Below are positions 12,162 to 57,296 of a stretch of 64,000 bases of DNA, in pieces. The notes beneath the pieces are model-generated. The model was given only the letters and a program-made list of their open reading frames with translations. It was not told the DNA's origin and did no database searches. A program made the translations under genes and the position numbers. Source of the stretch: a bacterium (GTDB lineage: Bacteria; Patescibacteriota; Minisyncoccia; Phycocordibacterales; Phycocordibacteraceae); the NCBI GenBank assembly GCA_037200965.1, contig JBBCGK010000001.1, positions 672,001-736,000 of the forward strand, in the 5' to 3' direction. Numbering within the stretch: the first letter of the stretch is position 1; every line of letters begins with the position of its first letter.

Positions 12162-12169
12162 TATTTCGT

Positions 12170-30974: not shown

Positions 30975-31529
30975 GTGATCGAATATACGCTTCGGGAAAG
31001 CAATCAGGCCCGCGCCGTCCGTATTACCGTCCGCGCGGACGGCAGCGTATCCGTCACCAAGCCGGTACGGGTTTCGCTCAGATTGGCAGAAAAGTTCGTG
31101 GAAGAAAAACAGGAATGGATAGAGAAAACACGGGAACGCTTCGCGAAGAGGAGGGCAAACGGGAAGGACCGTGTGGTACTCCCGAAGCTGCGGCGGGGCA
31201 CGAGCACGCGCCGCGAAGCCGTACGAACCATCCGCACGCTTATCGGAGAGCGCCTCGCGCACTTCAACCGGGAATACGGATACAAGGTCGGCACGATATC
31301 GATACGGGATCAAAAGACGCGCTGGGGAAGCTGCTCGCTAAAAGGGAACTTAAGTTTCAACTATCGCCTCCTGTACCTTCCGCCGACCCACCGCGACTAC
31401 GTCATCGTGCACGAGCTCTGCCACATTAAAGAACACAACCACTCTAAAGCGTTTTGGCTCCTCGTCGGGCGGACGATTCCGGATGCCCGGGCAATTCGCA
31501 GGGAGTTGCGGTCGGGGTATTCGCTCTAG
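30975..31529 (+). CDS. YgjP-like metal-dependent hydrolase (DUF45/M48-like); GTG start
   Basis: HELCHIKEHNHSKAFW motif characteristic of YgjP/SprT-like proteins. Confidence 0.65.
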   Translation: MIEYTLRESNQARAVRITVRADGSVSVTKPVRVSLRLAEKFVEEKQEWIEKTRERFAKRRANGKDRVVLPKLRRGTSTRREAVRTIRTLIGERLAHFNREYGYKVGTISIRDQKTRWGSCSLKGNLSFNYRLLYLPPTHRDYVIVHELCHIKEHNHSKAFWLLVGRTIPDARAIRRELRSGYSL

Positions 31530-31533
31530 GTAC

Positions 31534-31827
31534 TTAGACGAGCTGAACCTTTTTCCCGAACGCTTCGGCGATCCGCCCGAGCGTATCGACCGTGATGCCG
31601 GTCTCGCCGCTTTCGATACGGGCGATGACCGACTGGGGCATGCCTGCTTTCTCGGCGACCGCCTTCTGGGTGAGGCGCTGGCTGCCGCGCAGGGCCGCAA
31701 TCTGTTTTGCGATGCTCAGCCGCACCGCCTCCTCGTTATAGCCGCGGCGGAAGGCCGCTTTCTTCGAGGACTTTCTAAACACGTCGTCGAACGAATAGAG
31801 TTTTATCGTTTTCGGGTTCCTTTTCAT
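31534..31827 (-). CDS. higA: XRE-family HTH antitoxin (HigA-like)
   Basis: LRGSQRLTQKAVAEKAGMPQSVIARIESGE helix-turn-helix; immediately downstream of a Gp49-like toxin gene. Confidence 0.65.
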   Translation of the reverse strand: MKRNPKTIKLYSFDDVFRKSSKKAAFRRGYNEEAVRLSIAKQIAALRGSQRLTQKAVAEKAGMPQSVIARIESGETGITVDTLGRIAEAFGKKVQLV

Positions 31828-31830
31828 ATG

Positions 31831-32139
31831 CTACGGTTTCTTTAGTTGTTTCCAGATTTTTTCCGCATACTCGATTTCCGCTTTCGGGGTCTTGTCGGTC
31901 TTCTTCCTGAATCCCCGTATGAAATAGATGCTGTTCGCGATGAGTACGTACGTAATGCGGTGATGGCCGGAGATAAGTTCGCGTACGGCCCGCCGCAACT
32001 GCTTCGTGTTCGGAATTTGTAGTTCTCCCGCGCGCATCGCGTCGATGTCCGCCGCGATAGCTCCCTGTTCTCCGGCGGCAAGCCCTTCGACATACGTTCT
32101 TGCGGCTTCGAGAAAGTACACGTCGTACCGGTCGCTCAT
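31831..32139 (-). CDS. higB: Gp49-like (DUF891) RelE/HigB-family toxin
   Basis: ITYVLIANSIYFIRGFRKKTDKTPKAEIEYAEKIWKQL resembles Gp49/HigB; a 3-nt gap separates it from the antitoxin. Confidence 0.55.
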   Translation of the reverse strand: MSDRYDVYFLEAARTYVEGLAAGEQGAIAADIDAMRAGELQIPNTKQLRRAVRELISGHHRITYVLIANSIYFIRGFRKKTDKTPKAEIEYAEKIWKQLKKP

Positions 32140-32247
32140 ACGGAACGATTATCTTATAACGGCCTTCGGCAGCCAAGACAAATATAGCAGACTTGCTATA
32201 GTCCCGTCAACCTTGGGGATAGCGGAAAAGAGGCTACCATATTCCGT

Positions 32248-33396: not shown

Positions 33397-33430
33397 ACGG
33401 GAGACTTATTGCCAGGGTATACTTTCAGCC

Positions 33431-34648
33431 ATGGCTAGCCGGAAAACCAAAGTATTCATTTCCATGCCCTTCACTGGCAAGACGTTTGAGAATTTAAGCA
33501 GGGAGCGCGAGGATTTGCATGCGCTTGCGGCAACCTATGATTTGGAACTTCCGGAGCAGTTCATCGGGTATCAATTCGCAGAAGACTTTAAGACCAAGGA
33601 CTACGATCCGTCATTTGTTCTCGCCAAAGATAAAAAGTACATAAAAGAATCCGATATTGTTGTAGCCGATTTCTCGTCTCCTTCTATCGGCACCGATTGC
33701 GAAACTACTATCGCAAAGGAACTCTATGACAAAAAGATTATCGGCATCGTTCCGGACGTGAATAAGCGGAAGCACGCATGGCTACGCTTTTATTGCGACG
33801 ACTTCGTATCTTCGGTCGAGGAGGCGTTCGAGCTCATACGGGCGAAATACGCGAACCATAATCATCCGGAGCATGTCGACAAGCGCCAGTACGACTCTAT
33901 TGCCGTCGAGTACCAGCTTGTCGAAGCCACGCCTATCCAGAAGTACGTGTACGACCCGAACGCGCGGGAGCTTCTCGGGGAATACGGCACCGGCAAGAAA
34001 GTCGCCGTGTTCCATTGCGCGAGCGGGCATCGGGCGCGTATAGCCAAAGAAGCGGGCGCGAAGGAGGTTATCGGGATCGATACTTCCTTTAGGCAGATAA
34101 GTCTCGCTCGTGAGATAGAGCTTTCTAAGCCGCAGGGCATTGAATATCGGGTCCTGAATGCTTATTCGAAGGATTTCCCCGATGAATTTCCAAAGGAATA
34201 TAATGGAAGTCTTGACGTCGTACTCGGGTTTTTCCTCATAGATCACGCGCAGACGGAAACAGAGCTCCAAAAGCTTGCGGAAAACGTTTACTCGAGCCTT
34301 GCGCCCGGAGGAGTGTTTATAGCCATGCTCGACGACTCGGAGGCGCGTACCCCGACTGACCCGAAGTACGGTGTCGCGATAGAGCCTTTAGAAGGGAAGG
34401 GGGATGCGAGCCAGCGCCGCATAGTCATCTATCAGAACATGAAGGACGGCGAGGATCGGGCCGTACTCCATTTCTTCAATTTCGAATGGACACGAGCCAC
34501 GGTACAGAGGGTATTTTCCGAAGCCGGGTTCGCTGCCGAATTCAAGGACCCGTTCGTGGCACCGGAAGGGAAAGAGCGTCTGGGGGAGGACTTCTGGAGG
34601 AAATACGAGGAAGATCCGGACAACGTGCTGTTTATCTGCAGGAAATAA
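33431..34648 (+). CDS. fusion protein: nucleoside 2-deoxyribosyltransferase-like N-domain plus a class I SAM methyltransferase C-domain
   Basis: N-terminus KVFISMPFTGK...DIVVADFSSPSIGTDCETTIAKELYDKKIIGIV has the NDT-like Rossmannoid pattern. C-terminus KVAVFHCASGHRARIAKEAGAKEVIGIDTS...LDVVLGFFLIDHA...LAPGGVFIAM matches MTase motifs I-IV. AT-richer than the host. Confidence 0.55.
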   Translation: MASRKTKVFISMPFTGKTFENLSREREDLHALAATYDLELPEQFIGYQFAEDFKTKDYDPSFVLAKDKKYIKESDIVVADFSSPSIGTDCETTIAKELYDKKIIGIVPDVNKRKHAWLRFYCDDFVSSVEEAFELIRAKYANHNHPEHVDKRQYDSIAVEYQLVEATPIQKYVYDPNARELLGEYGTGKKVAVFHCASGHRARIAKEAGAKEVIGIDTSFRQISLAREIELSKPQGIEYRVLNAYSKDFPDEFPKEYNGSLDVVLGFFLIDHAQTETELQKLAENVYSSLAPGGVFIAMLDDSEARTPTDPKYGVAIEPLEGKGDASQRRIVIYQNMKDGEDRAVLHFFNFEWTRATVQRVFSEAGFAAEFKDPFVAPEGKERLGEDFWRKYEEDPDNVLFICRK

Positions 34649-35364: not shown

Positions 35365-35820
35365 ATGACAACGCAACAGTATTCAATCCGCATCAACGCG
35401 CCGAAGGAAAAGGTTTGGAACACAATGCTCGGTCAGGACACGTATCGGGAATGGACGAGCGCCTTTAACGAAGGCGGACGTTTTGAGGGCAGCTGGGACC
35501 AGGGTTCCAAGATTCTTTTCCTTGGACCGGATCCTCTGACCGGAAAGGAGGGGGGTATGGTTTCCCGCATCAGGGAGAACAGACCGTATGAGTTCATCTC
35601 TATCGAGCACCTCGGTATTATGAAAGACGGTGTCGAAGATACGACGAGCGAAGAGGCAAAAAAGTGGGCTCCTGCATACGAAAACTATACTTTCACCGAA
35701 AAGGACGGTGTCACCGAAGTGTCCGTAGATATCGACATCGCTGAGGAGTTTGCCGATATGTTTAAAGAGGCGTGGCCGAAGGGTCTTGCAAAGCTTAAAG
35801 AAATCTCCGAAAAGCCCTAG
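35365..35820 (+). CDS. SRPBCC-fold protein (AHSA1/activator of Hsp90 ATPase-like)
   Basis: ~150 aa; pattern typical of the SRPBCC ligand-binding fold. The start is set at the internal MTTQQYS. Confidence 0.5.
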   Translation: MTTQQYSIRINAPKEKVWNTMLGQDTYREWTSAFNEGGRFEGSWDQGSKILFLGPDPLTGKEGGMVSRIRENRPYEFISIEHLGIMKDGVEDTTSEEAKKWAPAYENYTFTEKDGVTEVSVDIDIAEEFADMFKEAWPKGLAKLKEISEKP

Positions 35821-35838
35821 GTATGTATCTCTAAAAGA

Positions 35839-35864
35839 AAACAGCCCGCTTAGGTGGGCTGTTT
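35839..35864 (+). terminator. intrinsic terminator (AAACAGCCC gcttaggt GGGCTGTTT, then TCT)
   Basis: 9-bp stem followed by a U-run, 20 nt after the stop. Confidence 0.55.
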
Positions 35865-35868
35865 TCTA

Positions 35869-36022
35869 TCTAGCGGGATTGGTTATCCCAGGGTTAGAAC
35901 CTCGCTGATGCAAAGAAACTTCTATATTTCCTAAGTGGTAGGCATAATGAGTACACAAAAGCCAATACGTGCCTACAGGGTACCCAGAATTAGGTCGAGA
36001 GGTTAAAACCTCCTCCTACAGA
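35869..36022. repeat. copy 1 of a ~150-bp repeated structured element
   Basis: Shares with copy 2 (38788-38985) the blocks CTAGCGGG, AGAACCTCGCTGAT, ATATTTCCT, a ~50-nt block AATGAGyAyACAAAAGCCAATACGTGCyTAyAGGGTrCCCArAAyTAGG, and GGTTArAACCTCC. It also contains the internal hairpin GTAGGCA...TGCCTAC. Confidence 0.8.
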
Positions 36023-37309
36023 TTAGGATGCAATTACCTTGTAGATTCGGTTATCAGCCACTGTGTCCGTGTTCTCTAGGTCAACCATTTCAAATACATA
36101 GCCATACTCCTTGAGTGAGTCTTCGAGCAGTGCCAGCGCGTCTTTGTCCTTATTTGAGAAACCGATATAGACCACGCCGTTTGGCGCAAGATATTCCTTT
36201 GTATTCTTAAGAAACTTAACCAGTACGCTATCTTCGTTACTCTGCGTCTTGAATGCATGGGCAAGGCTTGTATCCGTCTTCTTAACCTTCTCATTATGGA
36301 AGGGCGGATTGAAGAAGATGATATCGAAGTGATTTTTATAGATTGAAGGTATTTTTTCGAATAGATTGCTCTCGAAAGCCACCCCCTTATCTTTTTGAGG
36401 AGAATTCTCAAGGTTGTATTTAGCGTTCTGAACGGCAGTTGAATTGATATCGCTCATCACCACTTCTTTTGCGCCTACATCAAGCGCCACGAGGCCCATC
36501 GCTCCATGACCACATGCAATATCGAGAACTTTCTTATCCTTCGATACTCCACGAACAAGCTTCGCGAACAGTTTTGAGGAACGGAATCGATTAGAAGGAT
36601 AGACGCCAGGGAAGACGGTCATTACGAGCTTCTCGAACAGGATTTTATAGTTGCTCGTGTTTTTGAGTACATGCTTATAGATCTCATTCGAGGTGAGAGC
36701 CGGATAGTATATCGGCGGGTAATAGTTTTTCTTTACAAGAGCGTCGAGGTACTTCAGCACGATGGAAGCCGCTTCCTCGCCATCCTTTGCATAGAAGAGG
36801 GGAGTGGAATCAGGATGCATCAAGCCTTCTGCGGCGAATGAGTCTATAAGCGCCTTGTATCGAGTGAAGTAATCACCCACAAGAACAATAGGCTTATTGA
36901 TTTCTCCAAGAATATTCAATATATGGATCTCTAGAATTTCGTGGAATGTACCTACTGCTCCCGGTAGCGCGATGAATGCATCCCCAAGCTCGATAAGTCT
37001 GCGCTGGCGCTCGTAGTGATCCGCATATCCTTCATAATCGGAGAAATAGGGACTTGGCTTAGAATCGCGATTTCCAAGGGCAACGCCAAACAGGTTGCCG
37101 CCTGCTTCCACCGTAGCCTTTGCTACCACGTCCATGAGGCCAGAAGGGCGTCCGCCGTTATTAATGCCGTATCCAGCCTCGCTTATAAGCCGAGCCACGG
37201 CCTTGGCGTCATGAAGATAAGACTCGTTCGTAGTTTCCATGCCGCTGGAGAATATGGTCACGCGAGGCGTATATCCCGCCTCGGTTTTCTTGCTCGGCAT
37301 ATTTGTCAT
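36023..37309 (-). CDS. fusion protein: LOG-family (TIGR00730, lysine-decarboxylase-like) nucleotide-binding N-domain plus an NPPF-motif small-domain SAM methyltransferase (RsmC/HemK-like) C-domain
   Basis: N-terminus TIFSSG...GINNGGRPSGLMDVVAKATVEAGGNLFGVAL...ALPGAVGTFHEILE gives the LOG signature. C-terminus VLDIACGHGAMGL...DIIFFNPPFH carries MTase motifs I and IV (NPPF). AT-rich. Confidence 0.6.
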   Translation of the reverse strand: MTNMPSKKTEAGYTPRVTIFSSGMETTNESYLHDAKAVARLISEAGYGINNGGRPSGLMDVVAKATVEAGGNLFGVALGNRDSKPSPYFSDYEGYADHYERQRRLIELGDAFIALPGAVGTFHEILEIHILNILGEINKPIVLVGDYFTRYKALIDSFAAEGLMHPDSTPLFYAKDGEEAASIVLKYLDALVKKNYYPPIYYPALTSNEIYKHVLKNTSNYKILFEKLVMTVFPGVYPSNRFRSSKLFAKLVRGVSKDKKVLDIACGHGAMGLVALDVGAKEVVMSDINSTAVQNAKYNLENSPQKDKGVAFESNLFEKIPSIYKNHFDIIFFNPPFHNEKVKKTDTSLAHAFKTQSNEDSVLVKFLKNTKEYLAPNGVVYIGFSNKDKDALALLEDSLKEYGYVFEMVDLENTDTVADNRIYKVIAS

Positions 37310-37397
37310 ATGCGAGAAGTATTGTATAAATGCTATTCACTGTCAAGTGATGTCAGACAGTACTTGACAACAAGTCAGGCAGGAATATACTGACCAT

Positions 37398-38159
37398 ATG
37401 GAACTCAACAAATCCCTTGAAGCTTTGGGCTTCTCATCAAAGGAGATTCAGGTTTATTTGGCGGTGATAAAGCTCGGTAAGACTACTCCAGCCGAAGTGG
37501 CGAAGATTACGAAAATCGGCCGCCCCACGGTCTATAATCTTGTTAAGAGTCTTATATCGAAGGGTGTGATAGCGGAGGATAAGGCCGATGCTGTGCTGCA
37601 CATCGTCGCACTGCCTCCCGAAGGCCTCCGAGCTACTATCGAACGGTCCAAGGTCGAGCTTTCAAAGAAAGAAGAACTTGTTGATGCGGCTATCGAAGAG
37701 CTTGGACTCATCCACTCAGGCGAGACCTATCCGGTGCCGCGCCTCCGTTTCGTGGAGGAGAACGAGCTACACGATTACCTTTTTCAGAATGCGGTTAAGT
37801 GGAATGAAAGCGTCCTCTCTAAGGACGGAATCTGGTACGGCTTCCAAGACCATAGTTTCGTAGAGAATTATGGAGATTGGATTGATTGGACGGTAAAGAA
37901 ACTCAAGGGAACGAAGTACAAGGTTCAACTATTCAGCAACGCTTCGAAAATTGAGGAACAGTTAGAAGGGAAGATCCCAGAGCGCTCAATCAAGTTCCTA
38001 AAGAGCTCTCGCTTTACGGCAACTACCTGGGTGGTAGGGGATTACCTCGTGATGATCTCAACCTCGAAGGCCCCGTTCTATTTGGTGGAGATTCACGATG
38101 CTCTTATGGCAGAGAATATGCGCGAAGTGTTTAAGAATATGTGGGAGATAAATAAATAA
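37398..38159 (+). CDS. TrmB-family transcriptional regulator
   Basis: The N-terminus ALGFSSKEIQVYLAVIKLGKTTPAEVAKITKIGRPTVYNLVKSLISKGV is a typical TrmB winged helix. Confidence 0.65.
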   Translation: MELNKSLEALGFSSKEIQVYLAVIKLGKTTPAEVAKITKIGRPTVYNLVKSLISKGVIAEDKADAVLHIVALPPEGLRATIERSKVELSKKEELVDAAIEELGLIHSGETYPVPRLRFVEENELHDYLFQNAVKWNESVLSKDGIWYGFQDHSFVENYGDWIDWTVKKLKGTKYKVQLFSNASKIEEQLEGKIPERSIKFLKSSRFTATTWVVGDYLVMISTSKAPFYLVEIHDALMAENMREVFKNMWEINK

Positions 38160-38164
38160 GAATT

Positions 38165-38725
38165 ATGGATCGATACCTTGATCAGTGGGCGCGAATTAAC
38201 CGCTGGCATAGAAAAGTCAATACTTTTTATGAAGGAGAGAGAAGTGTTCTTGAGGATAATGAAAGATTGGATATGGTCCGAACTTTTTTCATAGAATGCT
38301 TTCATTTAAAGGATTGGATCAAAGCTGACTTTCCGAATCTTTCAGTAGCTACCGAAAGAATATTTGATCGAGTAGAAGGCGAGGAATGTTTCAAAATTTG
38401 TGCAGACCTAGCGAATGCATCGAAACACGTGGATCTTAATAAGGCAGTCAGAAAAGATAAAGAAACTAAAATCGGTACTCAAGGAATTACAATCATGGTT
38501 GATCCTATTAAATGGGATTCAGACCCGAAGGATTATTTGCCGCCCGTGTGTAAATACCGATGGGACATCATAGCGTCAAGGAAGAAGTTTGATGTAAAAG
38601 AGCTAGCCGATGAGTGTATTGAGAGTTGGAAGAAGTTTATGCGCAAGAATGGACTATCTATAGAGATTGTTGCTCGATTGTCCATTCCAATAGATGGAAC
38701 ATCTTTTGATGCCAAAGCGTCTTAG
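38165..38725 (+). CDS. hypothetical protein (186 aa), AT-rich
   Basis: Starts 5 nt after the TrmB stop; no recognisable domain. Confidence 0.45.
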   Translation: MDRYLDQWARINRWHRKVNTFYEGERSVLEDNERLDMVRTFFIECFHLKDWIKADFPNLSVATERIFDRVEGEECFKICADLANASKHVDLNKAVRKDKETKIGTQGITIMVDPIKWDSDPKDYLPPVCKYRWDIIASRKKFDVKELADECIESWKKFMRKNGLSIEIVARLSIPIDGTSFDAKAS

Positions 38726-38787
38726 TACCGAAAGTAACAGTGATACTCCAGTCGTTTAAGAGATTACGGGAGAGGTGGAGGAAAGTT

Positions 38788-38985
38788 CCTAGCGGGTGCT
38801 TTTATGAAACTAGGTGGAATTGGATATCCGAGATAAGAACCTCGCTGATACTAAACAGCTCCTCATATTTCCTTCGTGTAGTGGATGACTGGGTATCAAA
38901 ATGAGCATACAAAAGCCAATACGTGCTTATAGGGTGCCCAAAACTAGGCGGAGGGGTTAGAACCTCCCATATTTTGGTAGTATTA
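38788..38985. repeat. copy 2 of the ~150-bp repeated element
   Basis: See copy 1; ~80 percent identity over the conserved blocks. Confidence 0.8.
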
Positions 38986-38990
38986 TCTAC

Positions 38991-39497
38991 ATGAAGATCG
39001 AATGGCTCGGAAAACGAATAGCAGTGGTTGGAGTAAGCGCATCAGGAAAATCAACTTTTGCGCGCAGACTTGCTACTAAGACTGGTCTGCCCCTGACGCA
39101 CATTGATGCCGTGATGTGGAAGCCGGGATGGGATTATATTGGCGATGAAGAAACAGTCCGCCAGCTCAAAGAAATCAGCAAGCAGGATGAATGGATCATC
39201 GAAGGATTCATCGATAAGAATGCTCTCGAAGCAGTTCTGACTCGTGCCGAATCAATAATCTATCTCGACTATCCGCGATACATACCTGCGTGGAGATACA
39301 TAAAACGATGGTTTAAGCATCGAAAGAATCCGCGCCCAGAATTGGAGGGCAGTCCAGAGAAATTCAGCTTTGAATTTCTGAAGCGGGTATGGGATAAGAA
39401 GGAAGTCTATCGGCTAAACGAATTTATTAAGAAAATGCCTGATACAAGCAAGATTCTGAGGCTCAAGTTGCCGAAGGAAGCAAATACTTTTCTATGA
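38991..39497 (+). CDS. P-loop NTPase/kinase (AAA_33 / topology-modulation-like)
   Basis: IAVVGVSASGKSTFARRLA Walker A; ~170 aa small kinase fold. Confidence 0.55.
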   Translation: MKIEWLGKRIAVVGVSASGKSTFARRLATKTGLPLTHIDAVMWKPGWDYIGDEETVRQLKEISKQDEWIIEGFIDKNALEAVLTRAESIIYLDYPRYIPAWRYIKRWFKHRKNPRPELEGSPEKFSFEFLKRVWDKKEVYRLNEFIKKMPDTSKILRLKLPKEANTFL

Positions 39498-39509
39498 GAG
39501 TAGTTACAT

Positions 39510-40028
39510 ATGGCTAGACTTATTATTCTCAATGGACCTCCTGGTGTAGGCAAATCTACGATTGCTGCACGTCTGCATAAGGATATTTCAAATTCGATAC
39601 TTCTGGATATAGATGAGATTCGTCGCTCCATTCCAAATTATAAAGAGCAACGTAAGGAAAGTCTGATTCTGGCGTATCAGGAGGCAATGCGGACCATAGA
39701 AGACTGTTTAGCTAAAGATCAGACCGTTATTATAGATAAGGTTGTTTCGGACTCAGATACACTCGATTCTTTTGTTGAGGCAGGGAATAAACAGGGTGTC
39801 GTAATAAATGAGATTCTCCTATTTGCAGACAAGGAATCAGTACAGAAGCGAGCAGACGAGCGTGGTTACAAACCAGGAAGTTTACTTACCCGTGAGCGAG
39901 TAGGAGACATGTGGGATCAAGTGAGTGTACTCAGAAGAAGTAGGAATAACGCTGTTGTTATGGATACGACTCATTTAAATCTTGAAGAAGTGTACAAAAA
40001 TGTAAGAGGAATAATCGGGCAAGTATAA
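39510..40028 (+). CDS. P-loop NTPase/kinase (AAA_33 / zeta-toxin-like fold)
   Basis: IILNGPPGVGKSTIAARL Walker A; ~170 aa. Confidence 0.55.
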   Translation: MARLIILNGPPGVGKSTIAARLHKDISNSILLDIDEIRRSIPNYKEQRKESLILAYQEAMRTIEDCLAKDQTVIIDKVVSDSDTLDSFVEAGNKQGVVINEILLFADKESVQKRADERGYKPGSLLTRERVGDMWDQVSVLRRSRNNAVVMDTTHLNLEEVYKNVRGIIGQV

Positions 40029-40154
40029 CCCGCCGGTAGGGGTGGAAGAGAAGTCCGGAATTTCTGAGAAGTTTCTGCAGAAAGTTAGAACCCCCAATCT
40101 GTTAAGACGCGCCAACACGAATGGTTACTTAACTCGGCCTTTCGTGAAATGATG

Positions 40155-40566
40155 TGGAGGTGGGGAGGTTGAACTCCCGTCCGACCTGCGCTTGAGAGCG
40201 AGTCTACGGCGCGTAGTTCCGATTAGGGTTTAAGAGAGGATGCGAGGAAACGGAACGAAACCATTCCCCTCCGATCCCGTTATCTAAGCCGCGGGCCGGG
40301 AGAGCCGCGAACCGATCGCACAGAAGATTCCGCCCGCTGGCCCGGCTGTGCGCACCCGGGACCAGGGACGTCGCTTAGGCGAGGTGAGCCGAAGCTCGAA
40401 CCTTATGCGTAAGCGAACGCGAAGTTCCCTGCGGTAAAGTAAGGAGACTTCACGCCTACAACAGTTTTGTTTGCAGGTAGAGTTTCCCGCCAGATTAAAG
40501 TGATGGGCGGGAGTGCACTGCGCCGCACGTCTCTCAAGGTACAGGCCGTCAAAGCCGGTCACCCCC
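40155..40566 (-). ncRNA. ssrA: tmRNA (ssrA)
   Basis: The minus strand begins GGGGGUGACCGGCUUUGACGG, matching the tmRNA 5' consensus GGGGxUGAxxxGGxUUCGACGG. It ends GGACGGGAGUUCAACCUCCCCACCUCCA, matching E. coli ...GGACGCGGGUUCAACUCCCGCCAGCUCCA. The acceptor stem GGGGGUG/CACCUCC pairs. An internal ORF GCA AAC AAA ... GCA UAA encodes the tag ANKTVVGVKSPYFTAGNFAFAYA. It lies directly downstream of smpB. Confidence 0.7.
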
Positions 40567-41048: not shown

Positions 41049-41878
41049 GTCGTGAGAAGGTCGAGAATCTCTTCGCGCCTTGCCATGACGTCATCGTAGC
41101 CCATGTAGAACGCTTCGGCGACCTTATGCGGATCGCGCGTCGTAAGGCCGACGGGAAGCGGCCGCGAGGGCGAGAGGTGAAGTCCCCGCACGCTGTTCGG
41201 GAGAACGGGGGTGTCGATGCGGTCCGTGTAATCGAGAAGCACGCCTTCAAGCGGCTCGCGCTGCCAGTACGCGTAGAGCCGGAAGAGCAGCTTCGCCCAC
41301 CGTTTCTTCGGCGTGAGATTGGTGATGAGCAGAATGCGCGTCGCGCCTTCCGCAACAGCCTTCTCAATGAGGGCCTGGGTGCCAAGCCCGATGCCGCCGT
41401 CCATATATAGATGGCTCCCGAGAGCTATGTGCCGGTGATAAAACAGCGGAATCGCCATCGCGGCGCGGAGCACCTCGTGGGGATCGAGCCAAGTATCGTT
41501 TCCGATAAAGCGCGTCGCCCCGCTTGCCTCGTCGGTCACGGGGACGAAATAACGCGACGGCGAGCGCGCGAGGCGGTCCGTATCGAGCGGAATGTACTGC
41601 TTGATAACCGTGTCGACCAGATAGTCGACATTGAACCTCGGGAAAGGGAAGTAGCGGATAAAGTTAGGGGAAGGAATGAATTTTATCCATGCCCGCTCGC
41701 CCTCATCGTACTGGCCGGAGAGATAGTACATGAGGGATCCCGTGCTTCCCGAGGAAGCGAGCGCTATGTCTGGCGCGCCAAGTCCGAGTTCTTTCCCGAG
41801 TGCGGTCAGTGCGCCCGCGGCATACGCGCACTTCATGCCTCCGCCGGAGGCGATAACCGCGGTTTTCTCCTCGCGCAT
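41045..41878 (-). CDS. patatin-like phospholipase
   Basis: Oxyanion hole GGGMKCAYAAG and GxSxG nucleophile (ASSGSTG); overlaps the smpB start by 4 nt. Confidence 0.75.
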   Translation of the reverse strand: MREEKTAVIASGGGMKCAYAAGALTALGKELGLGAPDIALASSGSTGSLMYYLSGQYDEGERAWIKFIPSPNFIRYFPFPRFNVDYLVDTVIKQYIPLDTDRLARSPSRYFVPVTDEASGATRFIGNDTWLDPHEVLRAAMAIPLFYHRHIALGSHLYMDGGIGLGTQALIEKAVAEGATRILLITNLTPKKRWAKLLFRLYAYWQREPLEGVLLDYTDRIDTPVLPNSVRGLHLSPSRPLPVGLTTRDPHKVAEAFYMGYDDVMARREEILDLLTT

Positions 41879-41918
41879 CCTTTCGAGATTAGCAGATTTT
41901 CGGTATACTGACAGTCTT

Positions 41919-43868
41919 ATGCCGCTTCCGTTTCAAACGCCGGGCAGGAATAAGAAAAACAGGAAACAGAAAACGCCCGTGAAGCGCTCGTATTTCGGCC
42001 TGCCTCCCACCTCCTTCACCGGCAATCTCGTCACGACCGTTCTCATCTTCCTGCTTCTCACGAGTGCGTACTCGCTCTTCGTGGGCCTGAGTTCGAGTCC
42101 CGAGAGCGTATCGCTCTCGCAGGTCGCGAAAGACGTCGAAGCGGGTTCTATAACCGCGATCAAGGTCGCAGGCGACAGCCTGAAGCTCACGTATACCGAC
42201 GAAAGCGAGAAAGTCTCGACCAAGGACCCCGCCGCGGGCCTTCCGGAGACGCTCGCGACCTACGGCGTAACGCCCGAGCAGCTGCGGAGCGTTGCTATTA
42301 CCGTCACGGGACAAAGCGGCTGGCGCTTCTGGCTCCTCACGCTCCTGCCGCTTCTCCTCCCGGTCATCTTCCTCGGGTTCCTGTTCTGGTTCCTTTCACG
42401 GCAGGTGAAAGGCGCGGGCATGCAGGCCTTCACGTTCGGGCAGAGCAAGGCGCGCATGACGGACCCGGCCGACATGAGCCAGCGCGTCACGTTCGCGGAT
42501 GTCGCCGGGGCGAAGGAAGCGAAGGAGGAGCTTATGGAAATCGTGGACTTCCTTAAGAATCCGAAGAAGTTCCTCGACATCGGCGCGAGAATTCCTAAGG
42601 GCATTCTTCTCATGGGCGCGCCGGGTACCGGGAAGACTCTCCTCGCCCGTGCCGTCGCGGGCGAGGCGGGCGTACCGTTCTTCTCGATTTCCGGCTCCGA
42701 GTTCGTCGAGATGTTCGTCGGCGTGGGCGCGTCCCGCGTGCGCGACCTTTTCCAGATGGCGAAGCGCGCGGCGCCCGCGATCATTTTCGTCGACGAGATC
42801 GACGCGGTCGGGCGCGTCCGCGGCACCGGAGTCGGAGGCGGAAATGACGAGCGTGAGCAGACCCTGAACCAGATTCTCGTCGAGATGGACGGTTTTGAGC
42901 CGACGGAAAAGGTGATCGTTATGGCGGCAAGCAACCGCCCCGACGTGCTTGATCCCGCGCTTCTTCGCCCGGGCCGTTTCGACCGACGCGTCACCATCGA
43001 TCTTCCGGACCGCAAGGATCGCGAAGAGATACTTAAGATCCACGCACGCAAGAAGCCGTTCGGTCCTGACGTAACCCTTCCGGTCATCGCCGAGCGCACG
43101 CCGGGCTTCTCCGGCGCCGAGCTCTACAGCCTCATGAACGAGGCGGCCATCCTCGCGGCCCGCGAGAACCGTACCGAAATCACCCAGTACGACCTCATCC
43201 GCTCGATCGAGAAGGTGATGCTCGGTCCCGAGCGCAAGTCCCATATTTTGAGTAACAAAGAAAAGAAGCTTACGGCATACCATGAGGCCGGGCACGCGCT
43301 TGTCTCATCGGTCCTCGAGCACGCCGACCCGGTGCACAAGATTTCCATCATCAGCCGCGGGCGGGCGGCGGGCTATACGCTCAAGCTTCCGTTCGAGGAC
43401 AAGAAGATGTACTCGAAGAAGGCGTTCCTCGACGATATCGCCGCGACCCTTGGCGGCTACGTGGCGGAAGAGATGATCTATGACGACGTGACCACGGGAC
43501 CCTCGAACGATCTCCAGGTTATCACCGCGCTTGCGCGCGACATGGTGTCCCGCTACGGCATGTCCGATTCCATCGGGCCCGTCGCATTCGCGTCCGACCG
43601 CGACATGCAGGGAGACCGGTATTCGCAGGAAATCGCCGCGAAGATAGACGGCGAAGTGTCGCGCATCATCGAGGAAGGGAAAGAGCGCGCGAAGAAAGTA
43701 CTCACCGAACACCGGAAGGCGCTCGACGCCATAACGGATCGCCTGGTCGAAGTCGAGACTATCGAGCGCGAGGAGTTCGAGAAAATACTTATCGCGAGCG
43801 GCATCACGCCGAAGAAGAAGGACGAGGAAGGGGTCGTCATCGCTCCAGTCGCGCCGCGCGTGGACTAG
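41919..43868 (+). CDS. ftsH: ATP-dependent zinc metalloprotease FtsH
   Basis: Walker [12 protein letters not shown] region, HEAGHA zinc motif; N-terminal TM helices. Confidence 0.95.
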
Positions 43869-44383: not shown

Positions 44384-44455
44384 CCACCCATAGCTCAATG
44401 GTAGAGCGATCGACTTATATTCGATTGGCTCCAGGTTCGAGTCCTGGTGGGTGGA
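44384..44455 (+). tRNA. tRNA-Ile with anticodon UAU (reads AUA)
   Basis: Manually folded: acceptor CCACCCA/TGGGTGG, D-arm GCTC-AATGGTA-GAGC, anticodon stem ATCGA/TCGAT with loop CTTATAT (U33, anticodon TAT, A37), T-arm CCAGG-TTCGAGT-CCTGG, discriminator A. 72 nt. Confidence 0.6.
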
Positions 44456-45280
44456 CTACCGAGGGAATATATCAACGAGTTCGCCCGAACTATAAAAGTC
44501 CGCGGCAAGACCGCCGAAGCTATACGAAACACCGAGAATATCGATGGCCGCGCCGCCTACCTGCGGATTCGCGTTCGGGGTCGAATGCGCGAAGCCGATG
44601 TTGTAAAGCGTCGAGACGACCGCGGGGTTTCCTTCGATAGGGAAGCCCGCCTTCCTCCACTGCGCTTCCACCTCCTTTATATAGAGTCCCGCATAGAGAT
44701 AGCTCCAATAGTGGTCGTGCTGGTCGGTCATGCGCGCGAAGCGTTCGCTTTCTACGTCGGTCGTCCGGAAGTCGAGCGCGTGCCCGAACTCAGGCCCCGG
44801 ATAGTACGGCGAGGCCGGATCCTTCAGATTATTCTCCACTTGGATCGCCGTGTCTTCTTTCATCCCCATCACGCCCCAGGAAAACTGTGTCTGAGAACCC
44901 AGGATCTTGAGCGGATAGAAGAATTGCTTATAAAACTCCCGTTCCGTGAAGAAAAGCCGCAGCTGTTCGGCGACCAAATTCGCGGCGATGAGCCGCGCGG
45001 GAACGCCCGAGTCGGCAGCCGCCCGGTCGAGCGCCGCGGTATCTTTCCGAAGCGCCGCCTCGAGCACCTGCCATTCTTCGGTCTTCTGCCAGGGCGTGCC
45101 ACGCGGATCGCTAGGCGCGAAGTCGGTCGATGTCGCGGAACCGATGAACGCTTCGCGCTGGAGGTCGACGATGCCGCTCGTGTTGGTGAGTCCGAACCGG
45201 ACCGCGAAGTATCCGACGACGAGGAAGAAGCCGATCGCGGCGAATATATAAATGACGATCGAGACGACTTTCTTAAGCAT
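44456..45280 (-). CDS. hypothetical membrane-anchored protein (274 aa)
   Basis: N-terminal TM (VVSIVIYIFAAIGFFLVVGYFAV) followed by a large soluble domain. Confidence 0.5.
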   Translation of the reverse strand: MLKKVVSIVIYIFAAIGFFLVVGYFAVRFGLTNTSGIVDLQREAFIGSATSTDFAPSDPRGTPWQKTEEWQVLEAALRKDTAALDRAAADSGVPARLIAANLVAEQLRLFFTEREFYKQFFYPLKILGSQTQFSWGVMGMKEDTAIQVENNLKDPASPYYPGPEFGHALDFRTTDVESERFARMTDQHDHYWSYLYAGLYIKEVEAQWRKAGFPIEGNPAVVSTLYNIGFAHSTPNANPQVGGAAIDILGVSYSFGGLAADFYSSGELVDIFPR

Positions 45281-54011: not shown

Positions 54012-54101
54012 GGAGACGTGGCTGAGTGGTCGAAAGTACCTCACTGCTAACGAGGCAGGGATTAACGTCCCTCGAGGGTTCGAATCCCTCCGTCTCCGCC
54101 A
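54012..54101 (+). tRNA. tRNA-Ser(GCU), class II with a long variable arm and an encoded CCA
   Basis: GGAGACG acceptor, GCTGAGTGGTCGAAAGT D-arm, anticodon loop CTGCTAA, long variable arm, GGGTTCGAATCCC T-arm, CGTCTCC-G-CCA. Confidence 0.85.
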
Positions 54102-54155
54102 GATGTCCAAATTCGAACCCAAGCAGAATAAGGGTATTTGGACTAAGATAATGAC

Positions 54156-55250
54156 ATGGCAACCAAAACGGCAAATTCAGGTCTTCATCAGGCCAAAACT
54201 GCCAAAAAGGACGAGTTTTATACCCAACTCGTTGATATTGAAAAAGAGCTGAAACACTACAAGGACCAATTTCGTGGCAAGGTGATTTTTCTGAATTGTG
54301 ACGATCCGTACGAAAGCAACTTCTTCAAGTATTTCGCTGGTAATTTCAATGCTCTCGGATTAAAGCAGCTTATTGCCACGAGCTACAAGCGATCGCCTAT
54401 TGCCAACACCCAATTAGGACTCTTTACCGATGGTGAGGTAGTGTCCGCAACTAAAGGCCGCCCAAAAGTGACTGCCAACAAATTCGTTATTAACGAAGTT
54501 GATGACATAAATGGTGACGGTTCTTTTGACTTGCGTGATATTGCGGAGCAGCTTAAAGCTAATAAAAATAACGAATGGACTCCATTAGACGGCGAAGGAG
54601 ATTTTCGGAGTCCGGAGAGCGTAGAACTGCTCAAGCAAGCTGATATTGTGGTGACAAACCCGCCCTTCTCGCTTTTCGGCGAGTATATTGATCAACTTGT
54701 TCAATACCAGAAAAAGTTTCTGATATTAGGAAATCAGAACGCTATTAAATATAAAAATGTCTTCAAGCTTATAAAGGAGAATAGGATGTGGCTAGGCTAT
54801 GACAATGGAGGAACGAAATGGTTCCAGGTGCCGGATGACTATGATATACAAACCGAATCAAGAATCAAAATAGAAAACGGTGTGAAATATTTTAGTATGG
54901 GCAGCATTGTGTGGTTTACAAATCTTGACACAACGAAGCGTCACATAGATTTCACAATGTACAAAAAATACAAACCCGAAGCATATTCAAAGTACGATAA
55001 TTACGACGCGATCGAGGTTTCTAGGGTGGTAGAAATACCAATGGACTATGGCGGCGAAATGGGAGTTCCGATTACCTTTTTAGATAAATATAATCCTGAC
55101 CAATTTGAGATTATTGATCTGCTAAACCGATACACCTTGTTTGACTCTCAGCAAACGAACGAAGATGTCAGACGAAGGCACTCCCACACTTGTAATATCA
55201 ATGGCAAGGCCGTATTTTCTCGAATTTTAATAAAGAACAAGCAAATTTGA
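54156..55250 (+). CDS. N6-adenine DNA methyltransferase of the EcoRI-methylase family
   Basis: N-terminal KKDEFYTQLVDIEKELKHYKDQFRGKVIFLNCDDPYESNFFKYFA is typical of the EcoRI_methylase family; catalytic IVVTNPPFS motif. AT-rich. Confidence 0.65.
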   Translation: MATKTANSGLHQAKTAKKDEFYTQLVDIEKELKHYKDQFRGKVIFLNCDDPYESNFFKYFAGNFNALGLKQLIATSYKRSPIANTQLGLFTDGEVVSATKGRPKVTANKFVINEVDDINGDGSFDLRDIAEQLKANKNNEWTPLDGEGDFRSPESVELLKQADIVVTNPPFSLFGEYIDQLVQYQKKFLILGNQNAIKYKNVFKLIKENRMWLGYDNGGTKWFQVPDDYDIQTESRIKIENGVKYFSMGSIVWFTNLDTTKRHIDFTMYKKYKPEAYSKYDNYDAIEVSRVVEIPMDYGGEMGVPITFLDKYNPDQFEIIDLLNRYTLFDSQQTNEDVRRRHSHTCNINGKAVFSRILIKNKQI

Positions 55251-57260: not shown

Positions 57261-57296
57261 TAAAAAGGACGGGCCGGAACTGTAGAAGTTCCGGCC
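57261..57296 (-). terminator. intrinsic terminator on the minus strand (GGGCCGGAAC tgtagaa GTTCCGGCCC; the A-run on plus gives a U-run on minus)
   Basis: 10-bp perfect stem with a flanking A5. Confidence 0.45.

What the first reader, a model, noticed from the sequence alone, without database searches (positions are those of the whole stretch)
35869..38985. Novel ~150-bp structured repeat present twice, bracketing the LOG-MTase/TrmB module
Copies at 35869-36022 and 38788-38985 share several long identical blocks, including a ~50-nt core (AATGAGyAyACAAAAGCCAATACGTGCyTAyAGGGTrCCCArAAyTAGG). Each has two internal copies of a GGTTArAACCTC mini-hairpin and a longer hairpin (GTAGGCA...TGCCTAC in copy 1). 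Both lie in intergenic DNA right after terminators. I tested them as tRNAs and found no proper cloverleaf. The terminal GGGGTTAGAACCTCCC resembles the T-arm of the adjacent tmRNA 3' end (GGGGAGGTTGAACTCCC on the same strand), so they may be decayed att duplications. Alternatively they are a family of small RNAs or MITE-like elements.
Basis: seen in the sequence. Interest (0 to 1): 0.6.

Follow-up and report, generated by a model that had tools for sequence, protein, structure and literature searches.

The report
Attachment-site scars of tmRNA-targeting gene cassettes
The two ~190-bp repeats are most likely recombination-site arms left where small gene cassettes were inserted one after another into the end of the tmRNA gene; they show no sign of being structured RNAs, small-protein genes or transposon-like repeats.

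Summary
The repeat is real. There are two copies (35869-36015 and 38812-38970), 77-78% identical, and only these two occur in the window. No Rfam family matches. No secondary structure is conserved, and no reading frame shows a coding signature. Relatives found through neighbouring proteins gave eight more copies. Wherever enough context exists (window, L067, L071), the copies lie in a low-GC array directly downstream of the tmRNA gene. All are in one orientation, and each sits at the tmRNA-distal end of a gene module. The distal edge of the element carries TTCCAC(A/C)T, which matches the last bases of the tmRNA gene (CCTCCACAT). In L061, homology to the tmRNA locus of two other genomes starts exactly at that heptamer: 87-88% over 91 nt, E 5e-27, against 51-55% (random) on the other side. 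Window copy 2 keeps a degraded version of the same flank. Copy 1 has lost the core through a 22-nt deletion. A GGTTCTAAC box occurs twice in the element and once in the flank after the true tmRNA, always in the same orientation. Best reading (0.62): these are attR-type junctions, made of an island-side arm plus a crossover core, from integrase-less cassettes accreted in tandem at ssrA. The sRNA and MITE ideas are not supported. No integrase was found.

The parts
35836..35867 (.). Bidirectional intrinsic terminator hairpin at the tmRNA-distal side of copy 1.
   Evidence: Perfect 12-nt inverted repeat with an A-run on one side and a T-run on the other. Nearly every copy in other genomes is also bounded distally by a terminator hairpin.
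35869..36015 (-). Copy 1 (w1): the element body (island-side arm) at the distal end of the 186aa/TrmB/LOG-MTase module. Strand is given in tmRNA sense. Its crossover core has been deleted.
   Evidence: 77% identical to copy 2. Orthologous copies sit in the same place, ~5-10 nt after the LOG-MTase stop and convergent with it, in L067 (11291-11476) and L071 (3239-3417). CTAGCGGG (35871-35878) abuts ATTGG directly, whereas copy 2 has 22 nt between them that include the core.
35894..35903 (-). Box A of copy 1 (TTAGAACCTC; GAGGTTCTAA in tmRNA sense). Candidate recombinase arm-type site.
   Evidence: Conserved in 7 of the 9 aligned copies.
36003..36012 (-). Box B of copy 1 (TTAAAACCTC). It marks the proximal edge of the element, 10 nt from the LOG-MTase stop codon.
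36023..38725 (.). Cargo of the second cassette: LOG/SLOG-methyltransferase fusion (36023-37309, -), TrmB-like regulator (37398-38159, +) and an ORFan of 186 aa (38165-38725, +).
   Evidence: Pfam and NCBIfam hits. The same TrmB/LOG-MTase pair lies next to the tmRNA in L067 and L071.
38769..38781 (-). GGAGAGGTGGAGG (CCTCCACCTCTCC in tmRNA sense). Remnant of the tmRNA downstream flank (P' arm) distal to copy 2.
   Evidence: 13/13 match to the flank downstream of the L071 tmRNA, and collinear with the core. Also present in L061.
38789..38811 (-). Degraded tmRNA-flank remnant (CTAGCGGGTGCTTTTATGAAACT; AGTTTCATAAAAGCACCCGCTAG in tmRNA sense).
   Evidence: TCCACCTAGTTTCAT-AAAAG aligns with the tmRNA end plus flank TCCACATGGTTTCATTAAAAG of L067 and L071 at 18/21.
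38812..38818 (-). Crossover core of copy 2 (AGGTGGA on +; TCCACCT in tmRNA sense). It matches 6 of 7 bases of the tmRNA 3' terminus TCCACAT.
   Evidence: The aligned position reads TTCCAC in 5 of 7 full-length copies.
38819..38970 (-). Copy 2 (w2): the element body (island-side arm) at the distal end of the two-kinase cassette. Box A is at 38834-38843 and box B at 38957-38966.
   Evidence: Homologous copies lie upstream of kinase orthologues in L061, L063, L064 and L057.
38975..38993 (+). The kinase's own extended -10 promoter (TGGTAGTAT), then 7 nt, then the ATG. The geometry is that of a leaderless mRNA, so the element body lies upstream of the kinase transcript.
   Evidence: The same [TG]GnTAnnnT-N6-8-ATG layout is found at 16 or more of 54 long ORFs in the window, while Shine-Dalgarno motifs are rare at 7/54. 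This is inferred from consensus matching only.
38991..40028 (+). Cargo of the tmRNA-proximal cassette: FlaR-like 'topology modulation' kinase (38991-39497) and an AAA_33/zeta-toxin-like kinase (39510-40028).
   Evidence: This cassette is absent between the tmRNA and the TrmB/LOG-MTase module in L067 and L071.
40030..40151 (-). Flank immediately downstream of the tmRNA (proposed P' arm). It contains box 0 (40085-40094; GGGGTTCTAA in tmRNA sense).
   Evidence: Homologous to the tmRNA flanks of L067 and L071 and to the distal flank of the L061 element. Box 0 has the same orientation as boxes A and B.
40152..40566 (-). Intact tmRNA gene (ssrA). Its last 7 nt (40152-40158, TCCACAT) form the proposed crossover core.
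   Evidence: Rfam RF00023 at 95.3 bits over the full length, and ARAGORN. The sequence is shown.

Best explanation
Each copy is the island-side arm of a site-specific recombination junction (attR type). These junctions were left by small cargo cassettes that integrated into the extreme 3' end of the tmRNA gene.

Proposed mechanism. A circular cassette carries an attP made of three parts. The first is a ~150-190-bp P arm, which is the repeated element and holds two GGTTCTAAC boxes. The second is a 7-nt core, TCCACAT, identical to the tmRNA 3' terminus. The third is a ~120-bp P' arm with a terminator-like segment and a third box. Recombination with the tmRNA end regenerates the gene and places the P' arm behind it. 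The P arm plus the displaced core ends up at the far end of the cargo.

Repeated rounds stack cassettes, with the newest next to ssrA. The window therefore reads: tmRNA | P' arm, kinase 2, kinase 1, copy 2 + core | flank remnant, 186aa, TrmB, LOG-MTase, copy 1 (core deleted) | older low-GC genes. The 'bracketing' of the LOG-MTase/TrmB module is simply two successive cassette boundaries.

Shown: the location, the orientation, the homology breakpoint at the core, the box repeats, and the absence of RNA or coding signatures.

Inferred: that a tyrosine or serine recombinase acting in trans does the job, that the boxes are its arm-type binding sites, and that the arm's conservation reflects that function.
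For: (1) In every case where the surrounding locus is long enough to see (window, L067, L071), the copies lie 1.3-5.3 kb downstream of an intact tmRNA gene. All are in one orientation relative to it, and each is at the distal end of a gene module.

(2) The region 33.4-40.15 kb has 41-53% GC, against 55-68% around it.

(3) The distal edge of the element reads CA(A/C)(T/C)TCCAC(A/C)T, compared with the tmRNA end CACCTCCACAT.

(4) In L061, the sequence beyond that heptamer is 87-88% identical over 91 nt to the DNA that follows the tmRNA in L071 and L067 (E 5e-27 and 2e-25). The 90 nt on the other side are 51-55% identical, against 49+-3% for shuffles. Two different left arms are joined to one right arm at a short common core.

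(5) Window copy 2 has the same layout in degraded form: TCCACCT-AGTTTCAT-AAAAG at 18/21, then CCTCCACCTCTCC at 13/13.

(6) L067 and L071 have tmRNA-flank-TrmB-LOG-MTase-element without the kinase cassette, so they act as an unoccupied comparison.

(7) Five GRGGTTCTAAC-type boxes lie on one strand within 4.3 kb of the tmRNA: two per element and one in the tmRNA flank. Only one other match (1 mismatch, 57577, - strand) occurs in the remaining 60 kb, and 2.8 matches per 64 kb over both strands are expected by chance. Box 0 is conserved in the flanks of four genomes.

(8) There is no conserved RNA structure, no Rfam family and no coding signature in six frames. This fits a DNA-level site.

(9) The element is 76-84% identical between genomes whose kinase and LOG-MTase third codon positions are 46-67% identical. 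Its halves occur in mosaic combinations across different cargos, as expected for sites that recombine.

(10) Precedent exists. attP is ~250 bp and contains a fragment of the target tDNA, and the tmRNA gene is the most enriched target (PMC4383910). Dehalococcoides has tandem ssrA islands bounded by short repeats of the ssrA 3' end, including integrase-less 'cis-mobilizable' ones (PMC3146451).
Against: No integrase or recombinase gene was found in the cassettes, in the ORFs scanned from the 64-kb window, or in the ~34 kb of L067 and L071. Not every ORF in the window was scanned.

The tmRNA-identical core is only 5-7 nt. In copy 1 it is absent, and in L067c it is mutated.

The distal flanks of copy 1, L067c, L071a and L071b are not homologous to the tmRNA flank.

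The genomic position of the copies on short contigs (L057, L062, L063, L064) relative to a tmRNA gene is unknown.

The sharp proximal boundary at box B, shared by cassettes with unrelated cargo, is not required by a simple attP-arm model.

The strong conservation of the ACAAAAGCCAATACGTGC block has no assigned role. In L057 that block is deleted.

No excision product or empty site from the same species was observed.
Confidence: 0.62

Rival explanations
1. An independent small-RNA gene family, unstructured and acting by base-pairing. Transcription would start just after the conserved YAYATT block and end at the box B hairpin. The invariant ACAAAAGCCAAUACGUGCC would serve as the seed. Copies convergent with LOG-MTase would act as cis-antisense RNAs.
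For: The element evolves about 2.7 times more slowly than neighbouring synonymous sites. It starts right after upstream terminators. It contains an invariant ATTTCC block with a -10-like YAYRTT. In kinase-linked copies box B is followed by CAUAUUUUG, which the scan flags as terminator-like. Multi-copy sRNA families with conserved single-stranded seeds do exist (general knowledge).
Against: There is no Rfam match and no stable or conserved fold. The -10-like block lacks the [TG]Gn extension seen at this genome's other promoter-like sites and has no -35 box. The box B hairpin is far weaker than the genome's real terminators and has no U-run in LOG-linked copies. The 'seed' is deleted in L057. 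This model does not explain the tmRNA-end junction, the uniform orientation relative to ssrA or the third box in the tmRNA flank.
Confidence: 0.13
2. A portable upstream regulatory module, meaning an array of transcription-factor binding sites placed just in front of leaderless promoters. It would put the kinase, a 178-aa gene, a cytochrome-d1-like gene and an antisense promoter facing LOG-MTase under one regulator.
For: In kinase-, 178-aa- and 520-aa-linked copies an extended -10 box (TGGTAGTAT, TGATATAGT, TGCTATACT) and the ATG follow box B within about 30 nt. L067c keeps TGCTATTAT facing LOG-MTase. Conservation is at the level of primary sequence without structure or coding. The direct-repeat boxes are about 110-124 bp apart.
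Against: The spacing between box B and the -10 box varies (15, 11 and 6 nt), so box B is not an integral promoter element. LOG-linked copies have no gene downstream yet are equally conserved. No regulator is shared by all contexts. This reading is compatible with, and does not replace, the att-junction evidence.
Confidence: 0.12
3. A tiny two-ORF operon or regulatory leader peptide. ORF-A (~30 codons, ...RTSL..SSSYFLRVVDEWVSP*) would end in an ATGA overlap with sORF-B (19 codons, MSTQKPIRAY[RG]VP..., loosely reminiscent of SecM/RAPP arrest motifs). The sORF-B stop codon sits in the box B loop.
For: sORF-B is open with the same stop position in 7 of 10 copies. This holds despite an in-frame 18-nt deletion (L057) and a 4-nt indel that is compensated by a new ATG (L062). 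ORF-A is open in 7 of 9 copies with an ATGA overlap, and codons L-R-V show three-way wobble. pN/pS is 0.61 in frame against 0.93 and 1.10 out of frame.
Against: Substitutions fall 8/12/9 by codon position in sORF-B and 15/12/21 in ORF-A, and the permutation test gives p=0.12. No frame stands out over the whole body. sORF-B is cut to 9 codons in L067c and L071b, and ORF-A is broken in w1 and L062 and lacks a start codon in several copies. Synonymous sites are far more conserved than in the adjacent genes. The kinase has its own leaderless-type promoter downstream of the element, so the ORFs cannot be its leader. Only two ORF-tail hits turned up among 1.84 billion proteins. The resemblance to the arrest motif is recalled from the literature (PMC10951233, PMC7897499) and was not tested.
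Confidence: 0.06
4. A MITE-like or IS200/IS605-type non-autonomous transposable element whose two similar sub-terminal boxes are recognised by a transposase in trans.
For: Two similar boxes lie in direct orientation near the two ends of a ~190-bp unit with sharp boundaries. The unit is found next to unrelated genes, and its halves are mosaic.
Against: There are no terminal inverted repeats and no target-site duplication. The boxes do not form conserved hairpins. Only two copies occur in 64 kb, at 77% identity. No Y1/HUH or other matching transposase was seen, and the one IS30-type gene in the window is unrelated. Copies occupy orthologous positions in three lineages. All copies with known context are confined to the ssrA array in one orientation.
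Confidence: 0.04

Closest known systems
Tandem ssrA-specific genomic islands of Dehalococcoides (ssrA-GIs, including integrase-less 'cis-mobilizable' members; PMC3146451)
   Same: Several islands are stacked directly downstream of the single tmRNA gene. [quoted passage not shown] GC content is low, cargo varies from strain to strain, and some members lack an integration module.
   Different: Here the tmRNA-derived repeat is only 5-7 nt at the very 3' terminus (20 bp within the T-loop region there). The conserved island-side arm is long (~150-190 bp) and is the dominant feature. Cassettes are tiny (1.3-3 kb, 2-3 genes). No integrase (DsiB-like or otherwise) is seen in any cassette or in the sequence examined. 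The host appears to be a ~1-Mb Parcubacteria-like genome.
Generic tDNA-targeting integrative islands and their attP/attL/attR sites (Islander principle, PMC4383910; lambda-type attP with arm-type sites is general knowledge)
   Same: The target gene is regenerated and a displaced fragment in the same orientation marks the far end. attP is about 250 bp. Repeated short boxes lie on both arms. The tmRNA gene is a favoured target.
   Different: The Islander filters would reject these cassettes, because they have no integrase gene and the displaced fragment is very short. Arm-type binding by a recombinase is inferred, not shown.
Integron gene cassettes with attC sites
   Same: Small promoter-proximal cassettes of unrelated function are separated by a conserved recombination-site module next to a fixed anchor site. 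They lack their own recombinase and their order can be shuffled.
   Different: The element has no RYYYAAC/GTTRRRY boxes, does not fold into the attC bottom-strand hairpin, and is longer than attC (57-141 bp). The anchor is ssrA rather than attI, and no IntI is present.
Multi-copy bacterial sRNA families / Rfam intergenic motifs
   Same: Short, conserved intergenic units that follow terminators and occur in a few copies per genome.
   Different: There is no fold, no covariation, no Rfam hit, no canonical promoter and no strong terminator.

Membership tests
tRNA/tmRNA-targeting integrative island (att junction) | Lies downstream of an intact target tDNA, in a fixed orientation relative to it | tested here: met
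   The tmRNA scores 95.3 bits over its full length. Five copies in three genomes lie 1.3-5.3 kb downstream of a tmRNA gene, all in reverse-complement orientation to it.
tRNA/tmRNA-targeting integrative island (att junction) | A displaced fragment of the tDNA 3' end sits at the distal boundary, in the same orientation as the gene | tested here: met
   TCCACAT (L061, 7/7), TCCACCT (window copy 2, 6/7), and TTCCAC in 5 of 7 full copies. The fragment is very short. It is deleted in window copy 1 and mutated in L067c.
tRNA/tmRNA-targeting integrative island (att junction) | The homology breakpoint falls exactly at the core when occupied and unoccupied sites are compared | tested here: met
   Comparing L061 with the L071 and L067 tmRNA loci, the right side is 82-88% identical (E 5e-27) and the left side 51-55% (random 49%). 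L067 and L071 lack the kinase cassette. The comparison is between species, not within one.
tRNA/tmRNA-targeting integrative island (att junction) | An integrase or recombinase gene is present in the island | tested here: not met
   No Phage_integrase, Resolvase or Recombinase hit was found in the cassette genes, in about 35 further window ORFs, or in the L067 and L071 neighbours. Several ORFs have no Pfam hit at all, and not every ORF was scanned.
tRNA/tmRNA-targeting integrative island (att junction) | Atypical base composition and variable gene content | tested here: met
   GC is 41-53% against 55-68% in the surroundings. Cargo differs between genomes.
Cis-mobilizable element (CIME) / accretion array | Modules are flanked by att sites and encode neither integration nor transfer functions | tested here: met
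   Kinase and LOG-MTase modules are bounded by a core or element on both sides and contain no recombinase.
Cis-mobilizable element (CIME) / accretion array | Mobilised in trans by a cognate integrase | not testable with these tools
   This needs excision or integration assays, or read-level evidence of circles.
Structured non-coding RNA / sRNA family | A conserved secondary structure supported by covariation | tested here: not met
alifold gives -16.5, -6, -2.5 and -5.3 kcal/mol with a covariation term of about -0.25. An all-pairs scan finds no helix with more than one covarying pair.
Structured non-coding RNA / sRNA family | Folds more stably than shuffled sequence; matches a known family | tested here: not met
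   z-scores are -0.73, -0.89, -0.94 and -0.13. No Rfam hit covers the element even at E<=10, and none was found in the relatives at Rfam's gathering scores.
Structured non-coding RNA / sRNA family | A discrete transcript with its own promoter and terminator | tested here: inconclusive
   Only a weak -10-like YAYRTT and a weak box B hairpin are present. Expression cannot be tested here.
MITE / non-autonomous transposon | Terminal inverted repeats, target-site duplication, many near-identical copies | tested here: not met
Integron attC site | R''/R' boxes (RYYYAAC...GTTRRRY), a hairpin-forming imperfect palindrome, and IntI nearby | tested here: not met
   The boxes read TTAGAAC and GTTAGAA, which do not fit the consensus (sequence). 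There is no overall palindrome and no integrase. The consensus was recalled from general knowledge.
Leader peptide / attenuator of the downstream kinase | The uORF is conserved as coding sequence and lies on the same mRNA as the regulated gene | tested here: not met
   There is no codon-position signature. The ORF is truncated in 2 copies. A leaderless-type promoter sits between the element and the kinase ATG. That promoter is inferred from consensus matching only.

The most novel reading that the evidence does not exclude
These Parcubacteria-like genomes may run an integron-like cassette system anchored at ssrA. Promoter-bearing mini-cassettes of 1-3 genes (kinases, SLOG-methyltransferase/TrmB, cytochrome-d1-like and others) would each end in a ~190-bp conserved recombination module. 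A dedicated recombinase encoded elsewhere in the genome, or on a phage or symbiont partner, would capture, stack and reshuffle them at the tmRNA 3' end. The conserved module may also supply regulatory input to the adjacent leaderless promoter.
Probability: 0.2. Interest if true: 0.7.

Novelty: new variant of a known kind. Interest (0 to 1): 0.4.

Why it matters
If correct, it shows that very small (~1 Mb) Candidate-Phyla-Radiation-type genomes still acquire and stack accessory genes at ssrA, as miniature integrase-less cassettes with an unusually long, conserved att arm. That would give a concrete sequence signature for finding their flexible gene pool and the recombinase that serves it: element + TCCACAT + flank with GGTTCTAAC boxes. 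It also removes a false lead, because this conserved intergenic repeat should not be annotated as a novel structured RNA. A practical by-product is that the window's genes appear to be largely leaderless, which matters for gene-start and regulatory annotation in this lineage.

Tried and rejected
(1) Rfam, with gathering thresholds on the whole window and E<=10 on 35700-39200, gave nothing on the element.

(2) The exact 18-mer core was searched in GTDB genomes, the exact 18-mer core in JGI metagenomes, and a 15-mer sub-core plus a degenerate 25-mer in IMG/VR. Only chance hits came back.

(3) Smith-Waterman alignment of both copies against the tmRNA gene alone was not significant. That test missed the real signal, which lies in the 7-nt terminus plus the downstream flank.

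(4) The 186-aa ORF is an ORFan, so it gave no context.

(5) The uORF/attenuator idea for the kinase, including the SecM/RAPP-like 'IRAY(R/G)VP' motif, was abandoned. The codon-position counts, the truncated copies and the leaderless kinase promoter all argue against it.

(6) ORF-A, a frame-2 ORF and a long antisense open frame were each examined. The signals are weak or start codons are missing.

All were negative.

(8) I asked whether the tail of copy 1 is a decayed kinase start. The similarity is not significant.

(9) A phmmer search with the 54-aa ORF that reads into copy 2 returned two ORF tails from other element copies and two repeat-protein artefacts.

(10) A possible box at 57577 near the tRNA-Ser island looks like chance and lies inside a likely coding region.

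(11) A search for an integrase in the window and in L067 and L071 found none.

(12) sigma-54, ECF, LexA, DnaA-box, parS and TGM readings of individual blocks were considered from memory. Each was dropped as a single-hexamer coincidence.

Full report
**Observation.** The two copies are real. The repeat finder reports a 71-nt block (35943-36013 and 38897-38967) at 83% identity. MAFFT gives 78% identity over the whole unit. The 18-mer ACAAAAGCCAATACGTGC occurs exactly twice, against 0.03 expected by chance. nhmmer profiles built from the copies find no third copy in the 64 kb. The same locus, with identical elements, is present in three other assemblies of the same organism (L007-L009). The source is a 960-kb contig labelled only 'bacterium'. 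The closest named relatives of its kinase are Kaiserbacteria, Parcubacteria and Taylorbacteria.

**Setting.** The copies lie in a low-GC stretch (33.4-40.15 kb, 41-53% GC against 55-68% around it). This stretch abuts the 3' end of an intact tmRNA gene (40152-40566, minus strand, 95.3 bits). The gene order on the plus strand is:
- a 405-aa methyltransferase, a GNAT acetyltransferase (on the minus strand) and an SRPBCC-like gene
- a terminator
- copy 1
- the LOG/SLOG-methyltransferase fusion (on the minus strand)
- a TrmB-like regulator
- a 186-aa ORFan
- copy 2
- a FlaR-like kinase
- an AAA_33/zeta-like kinase
- the tmRNA (on the minus strand).

**Is it an RNA?** No Rfam family matches the element, even at E<=10. 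The same holds in relatives, searched at Rfam's gathering scores. Single-sequence folds are no better than shuffles, with z-scores of -0.73, -0.89, -0.94 and -0.13 for the two copies on both strands. To gain comparative power I looked for homologues. Exact-core scans of GTDB genomes, JGI metagenomes and IMG/VR returned only chance hits. Protein neighbours worked better.

Kinase orthologues at 82% amino-acid identity or more carry the element upstream in L061, L063, L064 and L057/L058. The L057/L058 copy has only the 3' half and an 18-nt deletion. In L062 the element sits at the head of an operon that contains the kinase. Kinase homologues at 74-77% identity lack it. LOG-MTase orthologues at 88% identity carry it ~5-10 nt after their stop codon, convergent with the gene, exactly like window copy 1 (L067-L070 and L071). 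L071 has a second copy in front of a cytochrome-d1-like gene.

With nine copies aligned (A5), RNAalifold gives -2.5 and -5.3 kcal/mol. An exhaustive search for stacked compatible pairs finds no helix with more than one covarying pair. The long stem exists only in copy 1. The element is therefore not a structured RNA.

**Is it coding?** tblastx between the two window copies revealed a 19-codon ORF (MSTQKPIRAYRVPRIRSRG* and MSIQKPIRAYRVPKTRRRG*) whose stop codon sits in box B. It stays open in most copies, even across indels. However, substitutions fall 8/12/9 on codon positions 1/2/3 and pN/pS is 0.77. The ORF is cut to 9 codons in L067c and L071b.

A second ORF of about 30 codons ends in an ATGA overlap with the first and is open in 7 of 9 copies. 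Its signal is weak: substitutions fall 15/12/21, pN/pS is 0.61 against 0.93 and 1.10 out of frame, and the permutation test gives p=0.12. A long antisense frame is open but has no conserved start codon. No frame stands out across the element. A full phmmer search of 1.84 billion representative proteins with the 54-aa ORF that reads into copy 2 found only two ORF tails from further copies of the element and two repeat artefacts.

Constraint acts on all codon positions alike. The element is 76-84% identical between genomes whose kinase and LOG-MTase third positions are 46-67% identical.

**Is it the kinase leader?** No. Across the window, at least 16 of 54 long ORFs have a [TG]GnTAnnnT box ending 6-8 nt before the ATG, and only 7 have a Shine-Dalgarno-like motif. 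The TrmB and LOG-MTase promoters found by the consensus scan have the same leaderless geometry. The kinase has TGGTAGTAT, then 7 nt, then its ATG, immediately after box B. The genes downstream of the L062 and L071b copies have TGATATAGT and TGCTATACT in the same position. On this evidence the element body lies upstream of the transcription start of its neighbour. These promoters are inferred from consensus matching, not from mapped transcript ends.

**The decisive evidence.** Rfam finds the tmRNA gene next to the TrmB/LOG-MTase module in L067 (7101-7517) and in L071 (1-394) as well. Read in tmRNA sense, all five copies with known context are reverse-complemented, and each sits at the far end of a gene module. 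They lie 1.3-5.3 kb from the tmRNA.

In that sense the element ends with CA(A/C)(T/C)TCCAC(A/C)T, while the tmRNA gene ends with CACCTCCACAT. blastn of the distal flanks against the tmRNA loci shows a match for L061. From TCCACAT outward, 91 nt of L061 are 87-88% identical to the DNA that follows the tmRNA in L071 and L067 (E 5e-27 and 2e-25). The matched stretch contains a terminator, TATACGCGTC, a third GGAGGTTCTA box and CCTCCACCTCTC. The 90 nt on the other side of the heptamer are 51-55% identical, against 49+-3% for shuffles. Two different left arms, the tmRNA body and the element body, are thus joined to the same right arm at a 7-nt common core. That pattern is the signature of site-specific recombination.

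Window copy 2 has the same architecture in degraded form. TCCACCT-AGTTTCAT-AAAAG matches at 18/21, and after a deletion CCTCCACCTCTCC matches at 13/13. Window copy 1 retains CTAGCGGG from that flank but lacks the 22 nt that include the core. The true tmRNA of the window is followed by a homologous ~120-nt flank with its own box (40085-40094). Five boxes of the type GRGGTTCTAAC lie on one strand within 4.3 kb of the tmRNA. Only one other match (1 mismatch, 57577, - strand) occurs in the remaining 60 kb, where 2.8 per 64 kb on both strands would be expected by chance.

L067 and L071 have tmRNA, flank, one or two small genes, TrmB, LOG-MTase and the element, with no kinase cassette. The window looks like the same array with one more cassette inserted at the tmRNA end.

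**Model.** The element is the island-side (P) arm of an attP. TCCACAT is the crossover core, shared with the last bases of ssrA. The ~120-nt flank is the P' arm. Integration regenerates the tmRNA gene with the P' arm behind it and leaves P arm + core at the distal end of the cargo (attR). Successive integrations stack cassettes, which is why the LOG-MTase/TrmB module is 'bracketed'.

This matches the general description of tDNA islands: attP is about 250 bp and contains a fragment of the target, tandem arrays occur, and the tmRNA gene is the most enriched target (PMC4383910). It closely parallels the tandem ssrA islands of Dehalococcoides, some of which lack an integration module and were interpreted as cis-mobilizable elements that spread by accretion (PMC3146451).

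The model also accounts for several smaller observations:
- The T-arm-like look of the boxes.
- The star-like identity matrix and the mosaic 5' and 3' halves shared across unrelated cargos.
- Sequence-level conservation without RNA fold or coding signature.

**Weak points.** No recombinase gene was found in any cassette, in the ORFs scanned from the window, or in L067 and L071. Not every ORF was scanned. Action in trans has to be assumed. The tmRNA-identical core is short, and it is missing from copy 1. Four copies have distal flanks unrelated to the tmRNA flank. The context of the short contigs is unknown. The occupied/unoccupied comparison is between species. The role of the boxes as arm-type sites, and of the invariant ACAAAAGCCAATACGTGC block (deleted in L057), is inferred or unknown. 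I therefore put 0.62 on the att-junction reading. The rest is divided among an sRNA gene, an upstream regulatory module, small ORFs and a MITE. The regulatory-module reading could coexist with the att reading.

Of the three interpretations, 'att duplications related to ssrA' is right in essence, but it was argued from the wrong end of the element and 'decayed' does not fit. 'Structured small RNA' and 'MITE' are not supported.

**Novelty.** This is a new variant of a known kind: tandem integrase-less mini-cassettes at ssrA with an unusually long conserved arm, in a CPR-type genome. Interest is moderate (0.4).

Noticed in passing
whole window; e.g. 37364-37400, 38975-38993, 33410-33433, 12150-12172: Most first genes look leaderless. 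A [TG]GnTAnnnT (-10) box ends 6-8 nt before the ATG at 16 or more of 54 long ORFs, while Shine-Dalgarno-like motifs precede only 7 of 54.
   Followed up: partly
window 54012-58866: A second low-GC island (54.1-57.5 kb, 41-50% GC) starts right after tRNA-Ser(GCT). It carries an EcoRI-type adenine methyltransferase, a GmrSD_N+HNH nuclease and a 212-aa unknown protein, followed by an IS30-like (HTH_38+rve) transposase. No element copy or displaced tRNA fragment was identified.
   Followed up: partly
window 44384-44456; L067 3677-3752: A tRNA-Ile with a genomically encoded TAT anticodon, which is unusual in bacteria, is conserved in the related genome.
   Followed up: no
window about 37335-37352: The divergent LOG-MTase/TrmB promoter region contains a palindrome, TTCAC-N6-GTGAT, that overlaps both -35 boxes. 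It is a candidate operator for the TrmB-like regulator. This rests on sequence reading only.
   Followed up: no
window 40224-40283 (tmRNA coding part): ARAGORN predicts an odd tag peptide (GPAGGIFCAIGSRLSRPAA*), and the Rfam alignment has a long insertion in the tag region. The true resume codon and tag may differ from the prediction.
   Followed up: no
L007 11918-13867 vs window 41730-43868: FtsH is a single 712-aa ORF in the window but is called as two genes (281 + 327 aa) in GCA_015655515.1. This is probably an assembly frameshift in that MAG.
   Followed up: no
L067 13041-17266: Distal to the element in the related genome lies a YcaO gene with a 76-aa neighbour, two unknown proteins (482 aa, directly distal to the element, and 231 aa) and a weak radical-SAM/B12-binding-like protein. 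This may be a RiPP cluster inside the ssrA array.
   Followed up: no
L057 2457-3680: In one relative the kinase with its partial element is followed by a Shedu-type SduA_C protein. This suggests that the cassettes sit among defence genes.
   Followed up: no
window 31500-32150 (L007 1533-2138): A Gp49/HTH_3 pair (HigB/HigA-like toxin-antitoxin) lies ~1.3 kb outside the low-GC stretch (which starts at ~33.4 kb), with the 60%-GC FAD-oxidoreductase gene in between.
   Followed up: no
P0155, P0157: Two very long 'proteins' made of 59-aa and ~90-aa tandem repeats weakly match the ORF that reads into copy 2. They look like translated satellite DNA, and the match is probably spurious.
   Followed up: partly
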